Below are positions 7,410 to 53,556 of a DNA stretch of 64,000 nt, one piece after another. Below the pieces are notes generated by a model. That model was not told where the DNA came from. It worked only from the letters and a program-made list of their open reading frames with translations, and searched no databases. Source of the stretch: Escherichia coli (GTDB lineage Bacteria; Pseudomonadota; Gammaproteobacteria; Enterobacterales; Enterobacteriaceae); assembly GCF_003790525.1 (NCBI RefSeq), contig NZ_CP033634.1; one strand, given 5' to 3'. Both the position numbers and the translations under genes were made by a program. How positions within the stretch are numbered: the stretch's first letter is position 1; every line of letters starts with the position of its first letter.

Positions 7410-7970
7410 ATGACAGAGCAGAAGCGACCGGTACTGACACTGAAGCGGAAAACGGAAGGGGAGACGCCTGTCCGCAGCCGGAAAACCATCATCAATGTCA
7501 CCACGCCACCAAAGTGGAAGGTGAAAAAGCAGAAGCTGGCCGAGAAAGCAGCCCGGGAAGCAGAGCTGGCGGCAAAAAAAGCGCAGGCCAGACAGGCACT
7601 GTCCATTTATCTGAACCTGCCCACGCTGGATGAGGCCGTGAATACCCTGAAACCCTGGTGGCCGGGATTGTTTGACGGTGACACGCCCCGGCTTCTGGCC
7701 TGCGGTATCCGGGACGTGTTACTGGAAGACGTGGCGCAGCGGAATATCCCGCTCTCGCATAAAAAACTGCGCAGGGCGCTGAAGGCCATCACCCGTTCAG
7801 AAAGCTATCTGTGTGCCATGAAAGCCGGTGCCTGCCGGTATGACACGGAAGGGTATGTGACGGAGCATATTTCTCAGGAGGAGGAAGCGTATGCGGCAGC
7901 GCGTCTGGATAAAATCCGCCGCCAGAACCGGATAAAGGCAGAACTTCAGGCCGTGCTTGATGAGAAATAA
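7410..7970 (+). CDS. finO: FinO fertility-inhibition RNA chaperone
   Basis: 186-aa product [14 protein letters not shown]... matches recalled F/R100 FinO; position after traX is canonical. Confidence 0.92.
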
Positions 7971-8557
7971 AAAAGCCTCCGTCAGAGAGAGGAGGCAGGG
8001 AAATAAGGCTTAAAGGAAATAACTTCCGTACCCAAAAGGAAATCGGTCCACTGAATTATTTAACACCATAATGTTGACGGGTTAAAGAGGAGTGATAAAG
8101 ATGAATGGATTCAGAAACAGTTCACGGAACGGTCAGGTCTGGCGCTGGCAGCGTGCCGGAAGCCGGGCCGTTATTCTGGAGGTCAGTGGACGCTGGATGG
8201 AAGCGGCAGAAGCATGGCGACGGGCTGCCGGTGTTGCACCCCGGACAGACTGGCAGCAGTTTGCCCGAAAAAGGGCTGAACAATGCCACCGACGCTGCCG
8301 GGGAAGGGTGTAACGAAAAAGCAGCCTTCATTACTCCAGGGATTCAGAAGGCTGAATAATGCATGAGATTTGCTTTTTTTAATATCCGGTCGGGCAGTAT
8401 GACCGGACAGTTCTGAGTAGCACAGAGTTTTTTCCGTATTAAGTCGTGATTTTATATTTTGTGATTAATTTCGCAAAATAAGGTGTTATTCAGTGTGTGC
8501 TGCGATATTCAGGATTACCTGAAATACAGGTGCCATTTATCTGATATGGAGAATAAT

Positions 8558-9019
8558 ATGAGGAAATATATTCCACTGGTATTATTTATCTTTTCATGGC
8601 CGGTATTGTGTGCAGATATTCATGGACGGGTTGTTCGTGTACTGGACGGTGATACCATCGAGGTCATGGACTCACGGAAGGCAGTGCGGATCAGGCTGGT
8701 AAATATTGATGCACCGGAAAGGAAACAGGATTATGGCCGGTGGTCAACGGACATGATGAAATCACTGGTTGCAGGAAAAACGGTTACCGTCACATATTTT
8801 CAGCGAGATCGTTATGGTCGTATTCTCGGGCAGGTTTATGCACCAGACGGAATGAATGTTAATCAGTTTATGGTCCGGGCCGGGGCTGCCTGGGTATATG
8901 AGCAGTACAACACAGATCCCGTGCTGCCTGTCCTTCAGAACGAAGCCAGACAACAAAAACGTGGGCTCTGGTCAGATGCTGATCCGGTTCCCCCCTGGAT
9001 ATGGAGACACCGTAAATAA
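8558..9019 (+). CDS. Secreted thermonuclease-family (staphylococcal-nuclease-like) endonuclease
   Basis: Signal-peptide-like N-terminus MRKYIPLVLFIFSWPVLCA then SNase-like motifs (LDGDTIEV, RLVNIDAPE, DRYGRILGQVY); GGAG 6 nt before the ATG at 8558. Confidence 0.75.
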   Translation: MRKYIPLVLFIFSWPVLCADIHGRVVRVLDGDTIEVMDSRKAVRIRLVNIDAPERKQDYGRWSTDMMKSLVAGKTVTVTYFQRDRYGRILGQVYAPDGMNVNQFMVRAGAAWVYEQYNTDPVLPVLQNEARQQKRGLWSDADPVPPWIWRHRK

Positions 9020-9064
9020 AGCGATGGCAATCTTATCATTCATCTGTTCTCAGCGGGAATAAAA

Positions 9065-9274
9065 ATGGCGAAAACAAAACAGGAATGGCTGTATCAGTTA
9101 CGGCGATGTTCATCAGTCAATACGCTGGAAAAAATTATTCATAAAAACAGAGACAGTTTATTAAACAGTGAACGTGAATCATTTAATTCAGCAGCAGACC
9201 ACCGGTTAGCGGAATTAATCACCGGAAAGTTATATGACAGGATACCAAAAGAGATATGGAAATATGTAAGGTAA
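9065..9274 (+). CDS. Hypothetical small protein
   Basis: 69-aa ORF between nuclease and DUF2726 genes in the same orientation; no recognisable domain. Confidence 0.4.
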   Translation: MAKTKQEWLYQLRRCSSVNTLEKIIHKNRDSLLNSERESFNSAADHRLAELITGKLYDRIPKEIWKYVR

Positions 9275-9311
9275 TAATTCAACATAATTAATTTCCAGGA
9301 ACAGATAAATA

Positions 9312-9902
9312 ATGAAGTTGATTATTTTTATTCTCATTGTTCTGATTATTGCAGCGTTACTTATCCGGATTATCCTCAGAAGTGTAAATCAGCATTCTCC
9401 TTTGCTGATGCAGTTACATGCGGCAGGTATACGGACCGGTGATGCAGAGCGAATACTGTCCGGCGGTGAATACTGGCAACGTCAGAAGACGCTGCTGACA
9501 GAAAGGGAAGTCAGTTTTATGAAAGGACTGTTCAGAATTGTGGATATGAAGCGGTGGTATCTGTGTCCGCAGGTACGGGTCGCGGATATCGTCCAGCTGA
9601 ACGGGAATATCCGGCCACGATCACGCCAGTGGTGGCAGTTATTCAGGATGGTGTCTCAGTGGCATGTTGATGTGGTTATCGTTGAGCAGCGTTCGTTCAG
9701 TATTGTTGCAGCAGTAGAGCTGGATGATGCCAGCCATTTACGACCGGAACGCAGACGCCGGGATATTCTTCTGGAAGAGGTTCTGAGGCAGGCTGGTATT
9801 CCGTTGCTCAGAAGCCACGATGCCAGAAAACTGCTGCAGATGACCGGAGAATGGCTGAATACAACAGGGGCTGATCAGCAGTCCCCGGAACATCGTAGCT
9901 GA
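9312..9902 (+). CDS. DUF2726-like (nuclease-related fold) protein with N-terminal transmembrane helix
   Basis: Hydrophobic N-terminus; central WHVDVVIVE and ELDDASH segments recalled as typical of DUF2726 proteins common downstream of finO in IncF plasmids. Confidence 0.65.
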   Translation: MKLIIFILIVLIIAALLIRIILRSVNQHSPLLMQLHAAGIRTGDAERILSGGEYWQRQKTLLTEREVSFMKGLFRIVDMKRWYLCPQVRVADIVQLNGNIRPRSRQWWQLFRMVSQWHVDVVIVEQRSFSIVAAVELDDASHLRPERRRRDILLEEVLRQAGIPLLRSHDARKLLQMTGEWLNTTGADQQSPEHRS

Positions 9903-34620: not shown

Positions 34621-34986
34621 ATGATTGATGTCTTAGGGCCGGAGAAACGCAGACGGCGTACCACACAGGAAAAGATCGCAATTGTTCAGCAGAGCTTTGA
34701 ACCGGGGATGACGGTCTCCCTCGTTGCCCGGCAACATGGTGTAGCAGCCAGCCAGTTATTTCTCTGGCGTAAGCAATACCAGGAAGGAAGTCTTACTGCT
34801 GTCGCCGCCGGAGAACAGGTTGTTCCTGCCTCTGAACTTGCTGCCGCCATGAAGCAGATTAAAGAACTCCAGCGCCTGCTCGGCAAGAAAACGATGGAAA
34901 ATGAACTCCTCAAAGAAGCCGTTGAATATGGACGGGCAAAAAAGTGGATAGCGCACGCGCCCTTATTGCCCGGGGATGGGGAGTAA
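34621..34986 (+). CDS. insC: IS2 OrfA (InsC)
   Basis: [56 protein letters not shown]... Confidence 0.92.
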
Positions 34987-35849
34987 GCTTAGTCAGCCGT
35001 TGTCTCCGGGTGTCGCGTGCGCAGTTGCACGTCATTCTCAGACGAACCGATGACTGGATGGATGGCCGCCGCAGTCGTCACACTGATGATACGGATGTGC
35101 TTCTCCGTATACACCATGTTATCGGAGAGCTGCCCACGTATGGTTATCGTCGGGTATGGGCGCTGCTTCGCAGACAGGCAGAACTTGATGGTATGCCTGC
35201 GATCAATGCCAAACGTGTTTACCGGATCATGCGCCAGAATGCGCTGTTGCTTGAGCGAAAACCTGCTGTACCGCCATCGAAACGGGCACATACAGGCAGA
35301 GTGGCCGTGAAAGAAAGCAATCAGCGATGGTGCTCTGACGGGTTCGAGTTCTGCTGTGATAACGGAGAGAGACTGCGTGTCACGTTCGCGCTGGACTGCT
35401 GTGATCGTGAGGCACTGCACTGGGCGGTCACTACCGGCGGCTTCAACAGTGAAACAGTACAGGACGTCATGCCAGGAGCGGTGGAACGCCGCTTCGGCAA
35501 CGATCTTCCGTCGTCTCCAGTGGAGTGGCTGACGGATAATGGTTCATGCTACCGGGCTAATGAAACACGCCAGTTCGCCCGGATGTTGGGACTTGAACCG
35601 AAGAACACGGCGGTGCGGAGTCCGGAGAGTAACGGAATAGCAGAGAGCTTCGTGAAAACGATAAAGCGTGACTACATCAGTATCATGCCCAAACCAGACG
35701 GGTTAACGGCAGCAAAGAACCTTGCAGAGGCGTTCGAGCATTATAACGAATGGCATCCGCATAGTGCGCTGGGTTATCGCTCGCCACGGGAATATCTGCG
35801 GCAGCGGGCTTGTAATGGGTTAAGTGATAACAGATGTCTGGAAATATAG
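34944..35849 (+). CDS. insD: IS2 OrfB (InsD) transposase catalytic part (expressed as OrfAB frameshift fusion)
   Basis: DDE integrase-like ORF overlapping orfA in the -1 frame. Confidence 0.92.
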
Positions 35850-35957
35850 GGGCAAATCCAGTGATATCCAATTCATTCAGTCTGTAAACACAATAGTGGA
35901 CATTCTCACATTGTCAAACGTGTATAGTTAGAGAGTGGAAGTAAAAGTGTATGGGTG

Positions 35958-36056
35958 GTTATTGCTGAGTACGATGACCGGTTCGTTGCGAAGGTCCGGG
36001 CGGAAAACTTTTTCACATGAGGCGTAGAAACTGTTGATATCAGCCAGTGCAAACAT
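35958..36056 (-). pseudogene. impB: impB 5' portion (first 33 codons)
   Basis: MFALADINSFYASCEKVFRPDLRNEPVIVLSNN matches the recalled UmuC N-terminus; the ATG overlaps the impA stop. Confidence 0.75.
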
Positions 36057-36493
36057 CAGCGTAACTCCCGCGTCCTGTGTATCACGTGAGTGACAACACC
36101 AAAAATACAGATGTTTTCCGGATACAGTGTGCGGAACTCCGGGCTGTCTGAAACCGGCTCCAGTGCCGGGCGTGGGCGCAACAGCAGTCGTTTGACGGTG
36201 AACTCACCATCGATCTCAGCGATAACGATGTCCCCGTGTTGTGGTTTTTCGGCCCTGTCCACTACCAGCAGATCACCATTCTGCACGCCAGCCTGGTTCA
36301 TCGATTCACCGCTGGCGCGCAGAAAGAAGGTGGCTGCAGGTCTGCTGATGCAATAGCTGTTCAGATCCAGTTCCTGCTCAGCATAATCAGTGGCAGGCGA
36401 AGGAAAACCGGCCAGGCAACGATCGGCAAACAACGGTCGCACGTAACTGTCATTGCCTGAAGGGTCAGCCGGACGGTGATAAACGGTACTCAT
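36056..36493 (-). CDS. impA: ImpA (UmuD-like, LexA-type S24 peptidase fold)
   Basis: 145-aa product aligns with recalled UmuD (FPSPATDYAEQELDLN...GESMNQAGVQNGDLLVVD...GDIVIAEIDGEFTVKRL). Confidence 0.88.
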   Translation of the reverse strand: MSTVYHRPADPSGNDSYVRPLFADRCLAGFPSPATDYAEQELDLNSYCISRPAATFFLRASGESMNQAGVQNGDLLVVDRAEKPQHGDIVIAEIDGEFTVKRLLLRPRPALEPVSDSPEFRTLYPENICIFGVVTHVIHRTRELR

Positions 36494-36738
36494 GCTGCAG
36501 GCAGCCAGCTGTCGTCCTGCCAGATTTCTTCCAGCAGAGACAGGATACGTTCTTTATCCTTGTCGTTGCGGGCTCCTGTGACAGATACAGACGGGGCGCT
36601 GCCCTGGTCTATACGCAGCCAGATTTCCGGGTAGTGTGGTTTCAGACGTCGTTCGATTTCATTCTGTAGCGCCTGAAGTGTGCCTGATTTGAGGTTTTTT
36701 GTGCTCTGGCGGTCGAAAAGAATTTCAATGCGGATCAT
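36490..36738 (-). CDS. impC: ImpC, small first gene of the impCAB operon
   Basis: 82-aa ORF from ATG 36738 with GGAG upstream; stop overlaps the impA start; sits between the LexA box and impA. Confidence 0.7.
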   Translation of the reverse strand: MIRIEILFDRQSTKNLKSGTLQALQNEIERRLKPHYPEIWLRIDQGSAPSVSVTGARNDKDKERILSLLEEIWQDDSWLPAA

Positions 36739-36761
36739 GTTCTCATCTCCCTTTTCTTTTG

Positions 36762-36777
36762 CTGTATGTATATACAG
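36762..36777 (-). promoter_or_regulatory. LexA (SOS) box CTGTATGTATATACAG upstream of impC
   Basis: Perfect CTGT-N8-ACAG palindrome 24 bp upstream of the impC start. Confidence 0.7.
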
Positions 36778-37378
36778 TATTCTAATAACTGAATCCACAC
36801 ACAGTCAAATGTCATTATTGTGACTAAAAAACGCTCAATTCTCTGAGGGTGTGGCTGTATGCCTGCTGTGGACTGCTGTGTCCAGCTTATCCACAGCATT
36901 TTGCGCACGGTTCTGTGAATAAAATACCTGGTTACCCAGGCCGTGCCGGCACGTTAACCGGGCTGCATCCAATGCAAGTGTGTCGCTGTCGCCGGCATCC
37001 TCACCAGGTCACTCAGCAGTCAGGGAGAAAAATGGCGGATGAAGTATGACGGAGACGGTCGGGCAAGTGCCCGTTTCTTTTCCGACAAAGGATGTCGCCG
37101 TGCTCCTCTTTTTACTGCGCCGGCTGACGCGGCGCGGCATAAACGCTGCCTGTGGTCAGTGTCCCGCGTCCGGCGGGCACGGGACGGGCGCTTTTACCGC
37201 TCCCGGCTGGCACCGGTGACAGTGTACGCCAGCCCGTCGCCCTTTTCTGATGAACGCCCTTCAAGCCGCTTTCGCGAATGAAAGGGACATCTTATTCGGT
37301 CTTTACGCTGGAGAGTTACTTTGGAAGACTGCGTCAACACGATGATAAGCGTACAAAGCCATTGTTAAGGGATCCTCT

Positions 37379-38395
37379 ATGACTGTTGTTACTGTCGGTA
37401 TTGATTTAGCTAAAAATGTGTTCGCTGTGCATGGCGTTAATGCTGCAGGAAAAGCTGTTTTAGTTAAGCCTCTTGTGCGTCGGGCTAAATTGCTTGAATT
37501 GATTGCAACACTTCCAGCATGTCTGATTGGAATTGAAGCATGTACAGGTGCACATTACTGGGCAAGAGAGTTCCAGAAAATGGGGCATACAGTTCGAATT
37601 ATGGCGCCGCAACTGGTTTCTCCATACCGTATGGGTGGCCGTCATGGGAAAAATGATGCTGCAGATGCCGCTGCCATTTGTGAAGCTGTTACCCGTCCTA
37701 ATATGCGGTTTGTTCCCATAAAATCAGTTGAGCAGCAAGGGCAGTTATTTGTACACAGAGCTCATCAGGGATATGTCAGTGAGAGAACAGCATTGATTAA
37801 TCGCATCCGGGGATTGCTCAGTGAGTTAGGTATTGTTCTCCCGCAGGCGTTTAAAGCGTTTTTATCCGGGGTGGCTCAGGTCCTTGAGGATTTGCCCGGT
37901 TACTGTAATCAGGTTATTGGTGATCTTCTTAATGAGCTTTATCACATAGAAGAAAAGATTAAAAACAGTGAAAAACTCATTCAGCAACTTGCCAGAGATA
38001 ACTCAGCAGCACAACTACTAATGCAATTCAGGGGGATAGGCCCGATGACTGCAACAGCAATCGTTGCCAGCATAGGTAATGGTCATGATTTCAAGAACGG
38101 ACGTCAGTTTAGTGCCTGGCTGGGGCTAACACCAAGACAACAAAGTTCCGGGGGGAAAGCACGGTTAGGGAGAATAACTAAAGCCGGCGACAGCTATCTC
38201 AGAACACTTCTTGTTTTGGGGGCGAGATCTGTATTGTTGGGAGCAGCTAAAAATGATGATCCGGTCAGTCGATGGGCCCTGCAGTTAAAAGAAAGGCGAG
38301 GATATGGACGAGCGCTTGTTGCGATAGCAGCAAAAAATGCACGTATGTGCTGGGCAATGTTGCACCTGAGAGATGAATTCAGATTTCCTGCCTAG
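37379..38395 (+). CDS. IS110-family transposase/recombinase
   Basis: 338 aa; N-terminal RuvC-like segment (VGIDLAKNVFAVHG...IGIEACTGAHYW), NDAADAAAICEA motif and C-terminal GIGPMTATAIVASIGNGHDF segment; element ends not determined. Confidence 0.85.
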   Translation: MTVVTVGIDLAKNVFAVHGVNAAGKAVLVKPLVRRAKLLELIATLPACLIGIEACTGAHYWAREFQKMGHTVRIMAPQLVSPYRMGGRHGKNDAADAAAICEAVTRPNMRFVPIKSVEQQGQLFVHRAHQGYVSERTALINRIRGLLSELGIVLPQAFKAFLSGVAQVLEDLPGYCNQVIGDLLNELYHIEEKIKNSEKLIQQLARDNSAAQLLMQFRGIGPMTATAIVASIGNGHDFKNGRQFSAWLGLTPRQQSSGGKARLGRITKAGDSYLRTLLVLGARSVLLGAAKNDDPVSRWALQLKERRGYGRALVAIAAKNARMCWAMLHLRDEFRFPA

Positions 38396-39091
38396 TCTAC
38401 TGATTATTAATGAGTTTATGAAATTGATTTCTTTCCTTGCATGACGACTGCACGATGATGATTTAAAAGGTTTGGACCTGCGCCATGGTTTACTCGAGAT
38501 ATGCAAGAGGCTGCCATGTTTATGTGGATATCTGTTTCGCGGATGGAGTCTATGGCGTGCGTCTTTCGTCAGGGTTCGTTGCTAACAACAGCACGTTAAT
38601 AACCGTTTATAGGCTCGCTGTCCGTAACCTTTTACTCTGACTGTGCAAGTTGTGTGCAGAAATCAATCTCATGATAGATAAAAGAATTATTCCACTGTTG
38701 CACCTGGAGTGTTCGGTGCTCGCTTTGCTGCGCTCCGCCTCAATCCAGTTGCAACAGCGTTTAATTAAAAGCATTAAGGCTTGTGTCATTGCGTACTTGA
38801 GCTATGCAGGAGATTTTTATTGGTTCTCTGTTTCGCGGATGAAGTCTCTGACATGAGCCTTTCTCTCATAAAAATCGTTCTATTTCATATTGATATATTA
38901 ATTTCATCATCATCGTTGACTCTGCAACAGATGTCCTTATAGGCATAGCCTTGCCGTCAAAAAGACGACGGCTGCGGTATTCCACGGTCGGCCTGACCCG
39001 TTACCGGACGCGGTGAACAGCCCACAGGCAGCGGGGAACGGGCACCACAGGGGTGCCCTCCCGGTGCCTTCTGTAAGAGAAGGAGGCTTTT

Positions 39092-39775
39092 ATGTCCCGT
39101 TTTATCCTGGGTGACTGCGTGCGAGTTATGGCCACGTTTCCGGACAATGCTGTCGATTTCATCCTCACCGACCCGCCGTATCTCGTCGGTTTCCGTGACC
39201 GTTCCGGGCGCACCATTGCCGGTGACGTTAACGATGACTGGTTGCAACCTGCCAGCAATGAGATGTACCGCGTACTCAAAAAAGACGCTCTGTTGGTCAG
39301 CTTCTACGGCTGGAACCGTATTGACCGCTTTATGGCGGCCTGGAAACGCGCCGGATTCAGCGTGGCAGGGCACCTCGTGTTCACCAAAAACTACACATCC
39401 AAATCTGCGTATGTCGCGTACCGCCACGAATGCGCCTACATCCTGGCAAAAGGCCGTCCACGTCTGCCACAAAACCCGCTGCCGGACGTGCTGGGCTGGA
39501 AATATTCGGGCAATCGTCATCACCCGACGGAAAAGCCTGTTACCAGCCTGCAACCGCTGATTGAGAGCTTCACACACCCGAACGCAATTGTGCTGGACCC
39601 GTTTGCAGGCAGCGGCTCAACCTGCGTTGCCGCCCTCCAGTCCGGACGCCGGTATATCGGTATCGAGCTGCTTGAGCAGTATCACCGTGCCGGACAGCAA
39701 CGACTGGCTGCCGTTCAACGGGCCATGCAGCAGGGGGCCGCGAATGATGACTGGTTTATGCCGGAGGCTGCGTAA
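39092..39775 (+). CDS. Orphan DNA methyltransferase (N6-adenine/N4-cytosine class, DPPY motif)
   Basis: FILTDPPYLVGF motif IV and C-terminal FAGSGST AdoMet-binding motif; AGGAGG before the ATG; no adjacent endonuclease gene. Confidence 0.8.
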   Translation: MSRFILGDCVRVMATFPDNAVDFILTDPPYLVGFRDRSGRTIAGDVNDDWLQPASNEMYRVLKKDALLVSFYGWNRIDRFMAAWKRAGFSVAGHLVFTKNYTSKSAYVAYRHECAYILAKGRPRLPQNPLPDVLGWKYSGNRHHPTEKPVTSLQPLIESFTHPNAIVLDPFAGSGSTCVAALQSGRRYIGIELLEQYHRAGQQRLAAVQRAMQQGAANDDWFMPEAA

Positions 39776-39997
39776 ATGAACTATGCCGGACACGAAAAAC
39801 TTCGCGCCGAAGTGGCGGAGGTGGCCAACACCATGTGTGACCTTCGGGCCAGGCTGAACGATATGGAGCATCGCTGTCGTTTTGATTCCGATGTGCTTGT
39901 TGAACGCCTGACACGCCAGACGCTGTATCGCGCCAATCGCCTGTTTATGGAGGCGTATACCGAAATTCTTGAACTGGATGCGTGCTTCAAAGATTAA
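39776..39997 (+). CDS. Hypothetical leading-region protein
   Basis: 73-aa ORF starting 1 nt after the methyltransferase stop. Confidence 0.5.
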   Translation: MNYAGHEKLRAEVAEVANTMCDLRARLNDMEHRCRFDSDVLVERLTRQTLYRANRLFMEAYTEILELDACFKD

Positions 39998-40009
39998 GGG
40001 GGAGACGAA

Positions 40010-40444
40010 ATGTACGGAACATGCGAAACACTCTGCCGGGAGCTGGCAGCGCAGTATCCGGGAGACACGCCGCTGATGCTGGTTGTCTGGTCCCCGGAAG
40101 AGATTCAGGCACTGGCTGACGGTATGGAAATTTCTCTGACCGATCATGAAATCAGGACCGTCCTGTCGCGCCTGGAGGACATCCCGGAAGACCAGCGGAG
40201 TGAATCCGGTATTTCTTCTGCCGCTGCGATGGAGATTATCAGCAACGTGAGCGAAAACCGCCAGGTGACCGTCCCTGCTGAACTGCTGGCGTCCCTGATT
40301 CAGACCGCCGAACAGGCACTGTGGAAACGTGAATGGGCCGCCCGTGATAACGGCCTTGCCGTCCCGGAATGTGTTACCCGCCGTCAGGCAGTGATTAATC
40401 AGGCCCGCACCCTGCTGAAAAACAACACACACGAAAACAACTGA
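40010..40444 (+). CDS. Hypothetical leading-region protein (paralogue of the ORF at 41921-42343)
   Basis: 144 aa; shares the ...R.VTVPA..L...... block with the 41921 ORF. Confidence 0.55.
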   Translation: MYGTCETLCRELAAQYPGDTPLMLVVWSPEEIQALADGMEISLTDHEIRTVLSRLEDIPEDQRSESGISSAAAMEIISNVSENRQVTVPAELLASLIQTAEQALWKREWAARDNGLAVPECVTRRQAVINQARTLLKNNTHENN

Positions 40445-40558
40445 TGTTATCGCCGCCTGCCCTCTGCCATTCAGAGACTGACCGGAACCGGGGCGGAACT
40501 GGTACTGTCCGGCAGTCAGTGGCAGTCGCTGCCGGTACTTCCGGCAGACGGAACGCAG

Positions 40559-53260: not shown

Positions 53261-53556
53261 TAATATAAGTAAAGCCCCGAAAAAATTTTCGGGGCTTTAC
53301 TTATATTATCATTTTTCGGCATTGCTGTGTCGTCTGATATACCTCAATTTCATCGACCGGCTTTCCGGTTGTCTGTAAATATTGTGCCCGCGAAAAATGG
53401 TCTGGCAGGAGGCTGCGCAGTTACCGGGTATATATAAGATGGGTTCCCGCTTCGCGGGGCTTCGGCCAGTCAGTATTGTCACTCATATGATATTTTTGTG
53501 TGTGGCCTTCCATGCCGCTTTTGCGGCATAACCGGTATCTGACAATGTCTGTAAGA

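What the first reader, a model, noticed from the sequence alone, without database searches (positions are those of the whole stretch)
36849..38700. IS110-family element: flanking non-coding DNA may encode a bridge (guide) RNA
IS110-family recombinases have been reported to use a structured non-coding RNA encoded in the element's non-coding end to specify target and donor sequences. About 530 bp upstream and about 700 bp downstream of the transposase gene are non-coding. The downstream part contains two ~26-bp direct repeats (tctgtttcgcggatgGagtctAtgGc at about 38523 and tctgtttcgcggatgAagtctCtgAc at about 38824).
Basis: inference. Interest (0 to 1): 0.5.

Follow-up and report, generated by a model that had tools for sequence, protein, structure and literature searches.

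The report
ISShdy1 bridge RNA with duplicated target loop
This is a copy of the known insertion sequence ISShdy1, and the DNA after its transposase gene encodes the expected guide ("bridge") RNA; the two direct repeats are two copies of the RNA loop that reads the insertion site, which is an unusual extra.

Summary
Empty-site plasmids put the element at window 37277-38942 (1666 bp). It is ISShdy1, of the IS1111 group of the IS110 family. Only 102 bp upstream of the transposase gene belong to the element; the rest of the "530 bp" is plasmid backbone. The 547-bp downstream non-coding region is inside the element.

Comparison with about 40 delimited relatives that use different targets shows a conserved ~200-nt RNA at 38435-38636. 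It has a target-binding loop whose two guides match each element's own flanks. It also has a donor-binding loop that matches the element ends. Twelve of its 30 base pairs show compensatory changes.

About 60 relatives have one copy each; only the ISShdy1 lineage has the second.

TBL-B keeps its closing helix through compensatory changes. Its right-flank guide (GCUAUGC) fits the observed sites (TTCGCG|GCATAG) better than TBL-A's guide (GAUAUGC).

A bridge RNA in the right end of ISShdy1 is already listed in Durrant et al. 2024. The duplicated loop appears not to have been described. No expression data were available.

The parts
37277..38942 (+). ISShdy1 insertion sequence (1666 bp; IS1111 group of the IS110 family). 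One G could be assigned to either end.
   Evidence: Empty sites L001 and L003 join window 37276 to 38942/3. PGAP annotates it as ISShdy1. Seventeen further full copies in public records and metagenome contigs have identical ends. G+C is about 43-50% inside versus 56-63% in the flanks.
37270..37276 (+). Left half of the target (TTTCGCG).
   Evidence: TTCGCG is shared by four independent sites: plasmid, yidE-like transporter, paaE and an amino-acid permease. It is identical to the left-flank guide in both RNA loops.
37283..37292 (+). Left subterminal inverted repeat (AGGGACATCT), preceded by the 6-7 nt extension (G)AATGAA.
   Evidence: It is complementary to 38929-38938. The end motif AATGAAAGGGAC(A/T)TC is conserved in about 40 relatives.
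37379..38395 (+). Transposase gene (338 aa, DEDD/RuvC-like domain plus Transposase_20 domain; contains GLTPRQQSSG).
   Evidence: It is nearly identical to the ISShdy1 protein in the supplements of Durrant 2024 and Siddiquee 2024.
38435..38636 (+). Conserved bridge RNA / long seekRNA region (target-binding loop A plus donor-binding loop).
   Evidence: This non-coding block is conserved in all relatives. The consensus structure has 30 pairs, 96.4% of cells paired and 12 pairs with compensatory change; 0 of 500 shuffles reach this.
38466..38566 (+). Target-binding loop A (TBL-A). Closing helix 38474-38488 / 38550-38564. Right-flank guide AGATATGC at 38497-38504. Left-flank guide TTTCGCGG at 38535-38542.
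   Evidence: A covariance model built only from 25 relatives outside the ISShdy1 lineage hits here at 66.4 bits, E = 9e-14. The homologous guide positions match the cognate flanks in relatives.
38563..38613 (+). Donor-binding loop. CTTTCGT (38563-38569) pairs with the left end ATGAAAG (one G-T wobble). Hairpin 38570-38605. TTTATAG (38606-38612) equals the right end TTATAG.
   Evidence: RNA UU(A/G)UAG tracks the right end TT(A/G)TAG in 26 of 26 elements. In L024 the left-end change AATGCAAG is matched by CUUGCAU in the RNA. The hairpin pairs covary (helices 4-5).
38769..38862 (+). Target-binding loop B (TBL-B), a diverged second copy without a donor loop. Closing helix 38776-38788 / 38849-38861. 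Right-flank guide AGCTATGC at 38800-38807. Left-flank guide TTTCGCGG at 38831-38838.
   Evidence: The same model gives a full-length hit of 19.3 bits, E = 0.009, the only other hit below E = 0.1 in the 64-kb window. The helix is kept through compensatory and wobble changes in L128, L013, L005/L226 and L004/L228. The guides are 92-95% conserved against L013 while the loop and spacers are 50-57%.
38916..38942 (+). Right end. TTGACT (38916-38921) is a -35 box. Right subterminal inverted repeat AGATGTCCTT at 38929-38938. The terminal TAG joins the left-end AAT in a circle to form TAGAAT 18 nt downstream of the -35 box.
   Evidence: Read directly from the sequence. TTGAC(A), 18 nt, then TAG|AAT is conserved in relatives. 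Junction promoters are described for ISEc11 (PMC11187229). Promoter function is inferred, not tested.
38943..38948 (+). Right half of the target (GCATAG).
   Evidence: GCATAG is present at all three independent chromosomal sites and at the commonest plasmid site. It is complementary to the TBL-B guide GCUAUGC.
37039..37281 (+). 5' part of a small plasmid hypothetical gene interrupted by the IS. It is not part of the element.
   Evidence: It corresponds to CDS 2056-2367 of the empty-site plasmid L003, with the insertion point at L003 position 2293.

Best explanation
The window carries an intact copy of ISShdy1, an IS1111-group member of the IS110 family. It is inserted site-specifically, with no duplication beyond one ambiguous G, at TTTCGCG|GCATAG in a small gene of the plasmid leading region.

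The 3' non-coding region is on the same strand as the transposase gene and encodes a bridge RNA (seekRNA) at about 38435-38636. This RNA has two loops.
- The target-binding loop carries a 5' guide complementary to the top strand of the right target flank and a 3' guide identical to the left target flank. The two meet at the crossover G.
- The donor-binding loop carries two guides in the same order that match the element's left end (ATGAAAG) and right end (TTATAG).

By analogy with ISEc11 and IS621, the excised circle forms a junction promoter (TTGACT, 18 nt, TAG|AAT). This promoter would drive the transposase and the RNA. The RNA-loaded DEDD recombinase would then pair target and donor and exchange strands.

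Copy A sits inside the complete bridge RNA. Copy B, 300 nt downstream, is a stand-alone target loop found only in the ISShdy1 lineage. It differs in the right-flank guide (GCUAUGC versus GAUAUGC) and most likely works as a second target guide alongside the single donor loop.

What is shown: element boundaries, target sites, RNA conservation and covariation, guide-to-flank and guide-to-end matching, and structural conservation of copy B.
What is inferred: transcription, processing, binding to the transposase, and the use of copy B in target choice.
For: Boundaries and identity
- Boundaries come from empty sites.
- The element is identified as ISShdy1 and the protein family is confirmed.
- ISShdy1 is listed with 'Detected Bridge RNA End = RE, IS1111' in Durrant 2024 Supplementary Table 5.

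Size of the non-coding region
- About 40 relatives share the same end motifs and have 3' non-coding regions of 197-423 nt, against 547 nt here.

Conserved RNA
- The consensus structure has 30 pairs, 96.4% of cells paired, 12 pairs with compensatory change, and 0 of 500 shuffles reach this. Sliding the 3' partners drops pairing to 33-52%.

Guides match cognate flanks
- The mean longest exact run is 5.7 (right-flank guide) and 5.4 (left-flank guide) for cognate pairs, against 2.7 and 3.2 for non-cognate pairs. The right-flank guide matches over 8 nt in L014, L015, L022 and L026, among others.
- The guide order, top-strand match 5' of bottom-strand match, is the order reported for IS1111 seekRNAs (PMC11187229).

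Donor guides covary with the element ends
- 26 of 26 elements agree at the right end, and L024 shows a matched change at the left end.

Copy B
- A covariance model trained without the ISShdy1 lineage finds copy A (66.4 bits) and copy B (19.3 bits, E = 0.009) and nothing else at E < 0.1 in 64 kb.
- About 60 relatives carry one copy each.
- The copy B helix changes keep pairing: U:A to C:G at 38786:38851 in L128, C:G to U:A at 38787:38850 in L013, and wobble changes in other copies.
- Against L013, the copy B guides are 92-95% conserved while its inner loop is 57% and neighbouring spacers about 50%.
- All three independent chromosomal insertions have GCATAG on the right. This fits guide B over 6-7 nt and guide A over only 5 nt.
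Against: - There is no RNA-level evidence. No expression, processing or transposase-binding data are available here.
- The single-sequence fold of the 206-nt region is no more stable than shuffles (z = +0.4). Copy B alone gives z = -2.3.
- Copy B scores low against the family model (19 bits).
- Copy B lacks a donor loop.
- Copy B is absent or decayed in two close relatives that use the same target, L219 and L012. It is therefore dispensable for at least some lineages.
- Sites with GCATAT and GCATAA on the right are also occupied. Position 6 of the right flank tolerates mismatch, so a two-guide explanation is not required.
- Many plasmid copies are probably one insertion inherited by descent, so only about four sites are clearly independent.
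- No separate promoter for copy B was found.
Confidence: 0.85

Rival explanations
1. Copy B (38769-38862) is only a decaying relic of a partial tandem duplication of the bridge-RNA gene. Copy A alone guides ISShdy1, and the repeat has no function.
For: - The family-model score is low (19.3 bits).
- There is no donor loop after copy B.
- The close relatives L219 and L012 have no detectable copy B and sit at the same plasmid target; for L219 both flanks confirm this, for L012 only the left flank is on the contig.
- Sites that mismatch both guides at position 6 (GCATAA) are occupied.
Against: - The duplication is older than the ~20% nucleotide divergence between ISShdy1 and L013, yet the closing helix is intact in all three lineages, with two double compensatory changes and several wobble changes.
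- Against L013, the guide segments are 92-95% identical while adjacent loop and spacer sequences are 50-57%.
- Independent chromosomal sites fit guide B better than guide A.
Confidence: 0.3
2. The repeats act at the DNA level, for example as alternative element ends or as part of a hitch-hiking MITE-like module inserted next to the IS, as with ISPpu9 and MITEPpu9/ssr9. They would not act as RNA guides.
For: - There is a precedent: an sRNA module flanked by end-like boxes lies downstream of ISPpu9 and moves on its own (PMC12288879).
- The repeats resemble the left junction: TTTCGCGAATGAA at 37270 versus TTTCGCGGATG(G/A)A in the repeats (D4).
- The 3' 160 bp of variant L128 are about 9% diverged while the rest is about 1%, which suggests modular exchange.
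Against: - No left-end or right-end motif flanks copy B. The only end motifs are at 37277 and 38942.
- All full copies examined are 1666 bp with the same ends, and no shorter form ending before copy B was seen.
- Copy B aligns over its full length to the RNA model with its helix preserved.
- The resemblance to the left junction follows from the left-flank guide being identical to the target by design.
Confidence: 0.05
3. The upstream non-coding DNA (36849-37378) encodes the guide RNA, as in IS110-group elements such as IS621.
For: IS110-group elements carry the bridge RNA upstream of the gene (PMC11208160). There is about 530 bp without a long ORF upstream.
Against: - Positions 36849-37276 are plasmid backbone present at 96-99% identity in plasmids without the IS.
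- Only 102 bp of 5' non-coding DNA lie in the element.
- No RNA-model or Rfam hit falls there.
- The element has IS1111-type features, and Durrant 2024 lists its RNA in the right end.
Confidence: 0.02

Closest known systems
seekRNA of IS1111-family elements ISEc11, ISPa11 and ISKpn4 (Siddiquee et al. 2024, PMC11187229)
   Same: - A DEDD transposase of about 338 aa with the GL-P----SG motif.
- Subterminal inverted repeats.
- A long 3' non-coding region.
- An RNA with a top-strand match located 5' of a bottom-strand match, the two overlapping at the insertion point.
- A junction promoter formed in the circle.
- No target duplication.
   Different: The transposase is only about 35% identical to the ISKpn4/ISPst6 group in that paper's identity matrix; its identity to ISEc11 and ISPa11 was not looked up. 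ISShdy1 itself was not studied there. The 3' non-coding region is 547 nt and contains a second target-loop copy. No RNA data exist for this element.
IS621 bridge RNA (Durrant et al. 2024, PMC11208160; Hiraizumi et al. 2024, PMC11208158)
   Same: A two-loop logic: a target-binding loop and a donor-binding loop. Each loop has one guide per flank, and the two guides pair with opposite DNA strands and meet at the crossover (core) position.
   Different: - IS621 belongs to the IS110 group and its RNA lies upstream of the gene.
- The guide order within each loop is reversed.
- IS621 has a CT dinucleotide core, against a single ambiguous G here.
- IS621 has one target loop.
- Handshake guides could not be identified here.
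Natural retargeting of ISEc11 versus ISXne4 (PMC11187229)
   Same: Closely related scaffolds differ only in the guide nucleotides, and those nucleotides track different targets. The same pattern is seen here across about 25 relatives, and between TBL-A and TBL-B at one guide position.
   Different: Here the two guide variants sit within a single element rather than in two elements.
ISPpu9 with its downstream ssr9 module, MITEPpu9 (Pares-Guillen et al. 2025, PMC12288879)
   Same: An IS110-family element that carries an extra small-RNA-encoding module downstream of the transposase gene.
   Different: ssr9 is flanked by its own end-like boxes, moves independently and is not a guide. Copy B here has no end boxes and is a homologue of the target-binding loop.

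Membership tests
IS110 family, IS1111 group insertion sequence | DEDD (RuvC-like) N-terminal domain plus a C-terminal Transposase_20 domain | tested here: met
   PF01548 (E = 3e-15) and PF02371 (E = 4e-25). NCBIfam NF033542 scores 348 bits against a cutoff of 140.
IS110 family, IS1111 group insertion sequence | GL-P----S(t)G motif in the C-terminal domain | tested here: met
   GLTPRQQSSG is present in the translation. The motif is defined in PMC11187229.
IS110 family, IS1111 group insertion sequence | Subterminal inverted repeats with a short left-end extension | tested here: met
   AGGGACATCT (37283-37292) is complementary to AGATGTCCTT (38929-38938), and 6-7 nt precede the left repeat.
IS110 family, IS1111 group insertion sequence | The longer non-coding region lies downstream of the transposase gene | tested here: met
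   102 bp upstream against 547 bp downstream within the mapped boundaries.
IS110 family, IS1111 group insertion sequence | Sequence-specific insertion without target-site duplication | tested here: met
   Four independent sites share TTCGCG|GCATAG. Comparison with the empty site shows that only one G is ambiguous.
IS110 family, IS1111 group insertion sequence | Circular intermediate with a junction promoter | not testable with these tools
   The sequence elements are present and conserved: TTGACT, 18 nt, then TAG|AAT. Circle formation and promoter activity require experiments.
Bridge RNA / seekRNA | A conserved secondary structure supported by covariation | tested here: met
   30 pairs, 12 with compensatory changes, 96.4% of cells paired, 0 of 500 shuffles reach this. 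Slid controls pair at 33-52%.
Bridge RNA / seekRNA | Two loop segments complementary to opposite strands of the two target flanks, changing with the target across relatives | tested here: met
   Cognate exact runs average 5.7 and 5.4, against 2.7 and 3.2 for non-cognate pairs. The right-flank guide matches over 8 nt in several relatives with unrelated targets.
Bridge RNA / seekRNA | Donor-binding segments complementary to the element ends | tested here: met
   UU(A/G)UAG tracks TT(A/G)TAG in 26 of 26 elements. CUUUCAU matches ATGAAAG, and L024 shows a matched change on both sides.
Bridge RNA / seekRNA | The RNA is transcribed, binds the transposase and is required for transposition | not testable with these tools
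   No RNA-seq or biochemistry is available. No Rfam family matches the region.
Second functional target-binding loop (TBL-B) | Full-length homology to the family's target-binding loop, with the closing helix kept by compensatory change | tested here: met
   19.3 bits, E = 0.009, covering model positions 1-108. U:A to C:G in L128 and C:G to U:A in L013. Within-species variants are wobble-preserving.
Second functional target-binding loop (TBL-B) | Its guide, not that of TBL-A, explains the insertion sites | tested here: inconclusive
   All three independent chromosomal sites and the commonest plasmid site read GCATAG, which fits guide B. GCATAT and GCATAA sites are also occupied, and there are few independent events.

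The most novel reading that the evidence does not exclude
ISShdy1 naturally carries two target-binding loops for one donor-binding loop. TBL-B would be a stand-alone guide RNA that pairs in trans with the donor loop of the full bridge RNA. It would be the loop that specifies the commonly used GCATAG sites, while TBL-A covers the GCATAT variant of the same plasmid site. This would be a natural case of guide multiplexing in a bridge recombinase system, one that arose by partial duplication and has been kept for a long time.
Probability: 0.5. Interest if true: 0.6.

Novelty: new member of a known kind. Interest (0 to 1): 0.35.

Why it matters
ISShdy1 is a catalogued IS1111-group element, and its right end was already flagged as holding a bridge RNA.

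This work adds three things:
- A base-level map of that RNA for a family common on E. coli and ETEC plasmids: target loop, donor loop, guides and junction promoter.
- The target motif (TTCGCG|GCATAG), which explains why the element sits at one spot in the leading region of conjugative plasmids.
- A conserved second copy of the target loop.

If that copy is functional, one natural element can use two target guides with a single donor guide. This bears on split or multiplexed bridge-RNA designs and on how these elements widen or shift their target range. The family alignment also gives about 25 natural guide/target pairs on one scaffold, which could help define programming rules for IS1111-type recombinases.

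Tried and rejected
1. Upstream region as the RNA source. Rejected because 36849-37276 is plasmid backbone.
2. Rfam scan of 35500-40500 at E <= 1. It returned only a spurious lncRNA hit, so no curated family covers this RNA.
3. My first reading that CTATGG after the left-flank guide in copy A was the right-flank match. Rejected: the family alignment shows it is the 3' strand of the closing helix (CCAUGG/CCAUGG, with a C:G to U:A change in L013 and L012), and the true right-flank guide lies 5' at 38497-38504.
4. A handshake-guide reading of the conserved (G)AAUGGAG that follows the left-flank guide, prompted by its resemblance to the left end AATGAAAG. Not supported: this segment varies in L024, L051-L053 and L060 without matching left-end changes.
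5. A MITE-like or alternative-end model after ISPpu9. No end motifs flank copy B.
6. Single-sequence folding energy. Uninformative for the full RNA (z = +0.4).
7. Promoter and terminator scan inside the element. Nothing above chance, and no separate promoter for copy B.
8. Metagenome scan with the copy-B 17-mer. Of 120 matching stretches, only six were ISShdy1 and the rest were chance matches. It did yield the useful variant L128.
9. Truncated copies ending at element position 1277 (L222). This is a plain adjacent deletion fused to distant plasmid DNA and says nothing about the RNA.
10. Search for other target-like sites in the window. No perfect site exists; the best, at 53519, has one mismatch.
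Full report
**What is there**

The window matches the E. coli IncF plasmid pGZM7d at 100% identity over the queried stretch 36500-39700. The ORF at 37379-38395 (+) encodes a 338-aa protein. It has the DEDD_Tnp_IS110 and Transposase_20 domains and scores 348 bits on NCBIfam 'IS110 family RNA-guided transposase'. RefSeq annotates it as an ISShdy1-family transposase.

38525-38567 and 38821-38863 share 43 nt at 81% identity. A gapped local alignment extends the homology to 38434-38567 versus 38744-38863, scoring 93 against 32 +/- 7 for shuffles.

**Boundaries**

Two plasmids lacking the element (L001, L003) align to the window up to 37276 and again from 38942. The junction sequences read:
- occupied site: ...ccgcTTTCGCG|AATGAAAGGGACATCT...AGATGTCCTTATAG|GCATAGCC...
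- empty site: ...TTTCGCGGCATAGCC...

The insertion is therefore 37277-38942, 1666 bp, with a single G that could belong to either end and no other duplication.

The ends carry subterminal inverted repeats, AGGGACATCT and AGATGTCCTT. The left repeat is preceded by a 6-7 nt extension. G+C drops inside the element.

Only 102 bp of upstream non-coding DNA belong to the element. It includes the 5' part of a small hypothetical gene that the IS interrupts. The 3' non-coding region is 547 bp and lies inside the element. These are the hallmarks of the IS1111 group, as described in PMC11187229.

**Target**

Seventeen further full copies from E. coli records and metagenome contigs have identical ends. 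Most sit at the same plasmid site. Its right flank varies: GCATAGCC, GCATATCC or GCATAACC.

Three chromosomal insertions are independent events:

| Site | Left flank | Right flank |
|---|---|---|
| yidE-like transporter | aaaTTTCGCG | GCATAGGa |
| paaE | gtgTTCGCG | GCATAGCG |
| amino-acid permease | cccTTCGCG | GGCATAGG |

The shared motif is TTCGCG|GCATAG. The window contains no second perfect site.

**The RNA**

I collected relatives of the transposase and fetched their DNA. About 40 elements could be delimited by the conserved ends AATGAAAGGGAC(A/T)TC ... CCTT(A/G)TAG. They are 1362-1548 bp long, apart from one 1728-bp outlier (L074). Their 3' non-coding regions are 197-423 nt and their flanks are diverse.

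Their non-coding regions share one conserved block, which corresponds to window 38435-38636. RNAalifold predicts 30 pairs on 28 sequences. Counted on the alignment, 96.4% of cells pair, 12 pairs show compensatory change, no shuffle out of 500 reaches the observed values, and sliding the 3' partners drops pairing to 33-52%.

Reading 5' to 3', the layout is:
1. The 5' strand of a long closing helix (GGACCUGCGCC..GG).
2. UACUCG.
3. An 8-9 nt segment that is the reverse complement of each element's own right flank.
4. A variable hairpin.
5. A 6-7 nt segment identical to each element's own left flank.
6. (G)AAUGGAGYC.
7. The 3' strand of the closing helix.
8. CUUUCAU, the reverse complement of the left end ATGAAAG.
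9. A covarying hairpin.
10. UUU(A/G)UAG, equal to the right end TT(A/G)TAG.
11. A conserved tail.

Guide-to-flank matching was tested across 23 elements with both flanks. The mean longest exact run is 5.7 (right-flank guide) and 5.4 (left-flank guide) for cognate pairs, against 2.7 and 3.2 for non-cognate pairs. The right-flank guide matches over 8 nt in L014, L015, L022 and L026, among others, which use unrelated targets.

The donor guide tracks the A/G polymorphism of the right end in 26 of 26 elements. In L024 a left-end change (AATGCAAG) is matched by a change in the RNA (CUUGCAU).

The guide order, top-strand match 5' of bottom-strand match with the two overlapping at the insertion point, is the order reported for IS1111 seekRNAs. 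This is a bridge RNA with both a target-binding loop and a donor-binding loop, on the transposase strand.

In the window the guides are:

| Guide | Sequence | Coordinates |
|---|---|---|
| right-flank guide A | AGATATGC | 38497-38504 |
| left-flank guide A | TTTCGCGG | 38535-38542 |
| donor guide (left end) | CTTTCGT | 38563-38569 |
| donor guide (right end) | TTTATAG | 38606-38612 |

**What the repeats are**

Each 26-mer is the left-flank guide plus AUG(G/A)AGUC plus the 3' strand of the closing helix. The repeats are thus the 3' halves of two copies of the target-binding loop.

To test this without circularity, I built a covariance model of the target loop from 25 relatives, excluding the ISShdy1 lineage. 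In the 64-kb window it gives two full-length hits: 38466-38566 (66.4 bits, E = 9e-14) and 38769-38862 (19.3 bits, E = 0.009). Nothing else falls below E = 0.1. About 60 relatives have exactly one hit each. A second copy occurs only in three places: ISShdy1; a variant about 98% identical to it (L128); and L013, a relative whose transposase is 91% identical and whose DNA is about 80% identical.

**Is copy B maintained?**

Its closing helix is 38776-38788 with 38849-38861. It differs from copy A's helix at many positions and still pairs perfectly.

| Sequence | Change | Effect on pairing |
|---|---|---|
| L128 | 38786 U>C with 38851 A>G | U:A becomes C:G |
| L128 | two further changes | U·G becomes U:A; G:C becomes G·U |
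| L013 | 38787:38850 | C:G becomes U:A, and the helix is extended |
| L005, L226 | 38851 A>G | U·G wobble |
| L004, L228 | 38852 C>U | G·U wobble |

Only a terminal pair is ever lost.

Between ISShdy1 and L013 the pattern of identity within and around copy B is as follows:

| Segment | Identity |
|---|---|
| right-flank guide B and its flank | 92% |
| left-flank guide B and the next 8 nt | 95% |
| helix strands | 67-73% |
| inner loop | 57% |
| neighbouring spacers | about 50% |

This is the pattern expected of a constrained guide RNA, not of a decaying relic.

The right-flank guide B (GCUAUGC) matches GCATAGC. Guide A (GAUAUGC) matches GCATATC. All three independent chromosomal sites and the commonest plasmid site read GCATAG. 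Plasmid sites reading GCATAT are also occupied by the same element (L007, L227). L128, whose guide B reads GAUAUGC, sits in a GCATAT site.

**Cautions**

- Copy B has no donor loop and scores low against the model.
- It is absent or decayed in L219 and L012. L219 sits at the same plasmid target on both flanks; L012 shares the left flank, but its right end is not on the contig.
- GCATAA sites are also occupied, so mismatch at position 6 of the right flank is tolerated.
- The number of independent insertion events is small.
- No expression data exist. The single-sequence folding energy of the full RNA is unremarkable. No internal promoter stands out.
- Transcription is inferred to come from the circle-junction promoter (TTGACT at 38916-38921, 18 nt, then TAG|AAT). 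That promoter is conserved across the family and is known for ISEc11.

**Comparison with what is known**

Durrant et al. 2024 list ISShdy1 as 'Detected Bridge RNA End: RE; group IS1111' in Supplementary Table 5. They report predicted bridge RNAs in 93% of IS1111 elements. Siddiquee et al. 2024 include the ISShdy1 transposase in their phylogeny but did not study it. No paper in the searchable library mentions ISShdy1 in its main text.

The anatomy given here is new detail on a member of a known class. I did not find a description of a second, stand-alone target loop in the papers I could search. The nearest precedent for an extra RNA module behind an IS110-family transposase, ISPpu9/ssr9, is a different thing.

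**Verdict**

This is a genuine ISShdy1 copy with a well-supported 3' bridge RNA. The repeats are a duplicated target-binding loop, and the second copy is probably functional (about 0.5-0.6). Interest is modest overall (0.35) and higher if the dual-guide reading holds.

Noticed in passing
window 37144-37173 and 39004-39033: A 30-nt inverted repeat (83% complementary) brackets the insertion site. It is plasmid backbone: both arms are also present about 165 bp apart in the empty-site plasmids L001 and L003. The ISShdy1 target therefore lies between the arms of a leading-region inverted repeat. Whether this structure helps targeting is unknown.
   Followed up: partly
window 38695-38768: A G+C-rich block lies in the spacer between the bridge RNA and TBL-B. 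It is 81% identical to L013, including a near-identical run (C/G)TGTTCGGTGCTCGCTTTGCTGCGCTCCG, while the adjacent spacer is about 50% identical. It contains a 17-nt inverted repeat (38695-38711 / 38741-38757, 88% complementary), but L013 has uncompensated mismatches in it. Its function is unexplained.
   Followed up: partly
L128 (metagenome contig ERZ791573 NODE-925), 7785-9450: This ISShdy1 variant is about 1% diverged over the transposase gene but about 9% diverged over the last 160 bp (TBL-B to the right end). This suggests the guide-bearing 3' module was exchanged by recombination with a more distant relative.
   Followed up: partly
L222 (NZ_LR883054.1) and similar ETEC plasmids (hits H63-H66): These are truncated ISShdy1 copies that end at element position 1277, inside TBL-A. 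In L222 the copy is fused to plasmid DNA that lies about 6.6 kb further on in the window (45528 onward), an adjacent deletion.
   Followed up: partly
L228 (NZ_CP053235.1, pSCU-106-1): Two ISShdy1 copies lie about 1.4 kb apart in direct orientation on one plasmid. Each follows a copy of the small hypothetical target gene, and a DUF1281 gene lies between them. The same strain also has a chromosomal copy (L004).
   Followed up: no
L013 (Logan SRR11297252 contig 170): This relative (transposase 91% identical) lacks its left end. It is preceded by repeated ~45-nt units (GTTGAATATTCAGGTGGGA...) and followed by a second IS110-family transposase gene on the opposite strand.
   Followed up: no
window 34944-36798: Upstream neighbours are an IS2 (IS3-family) transposase ORF (34944-35849), a umuD-like gene (36056-36493, minus strand) and a DinI-like gene (36490-36798, minus strand). 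Downstream is a DNA methylase gene (39092-39775). This is the typical leading region of a conjugative plasmid.
   Followed up: no
L027, L029, L030, L036, L037, L039, L040, L047, L051, L053, L059, L060, L068, L093, L098 and others: Many betaproteobacterial relatives share the same left-flank guide (CUAACG). They sit at sites of the form ..CTAACG|T..GAG.T.ACCGG, which looks like a repeated (REP-like) chromosomal sequence.
   Followed up: no
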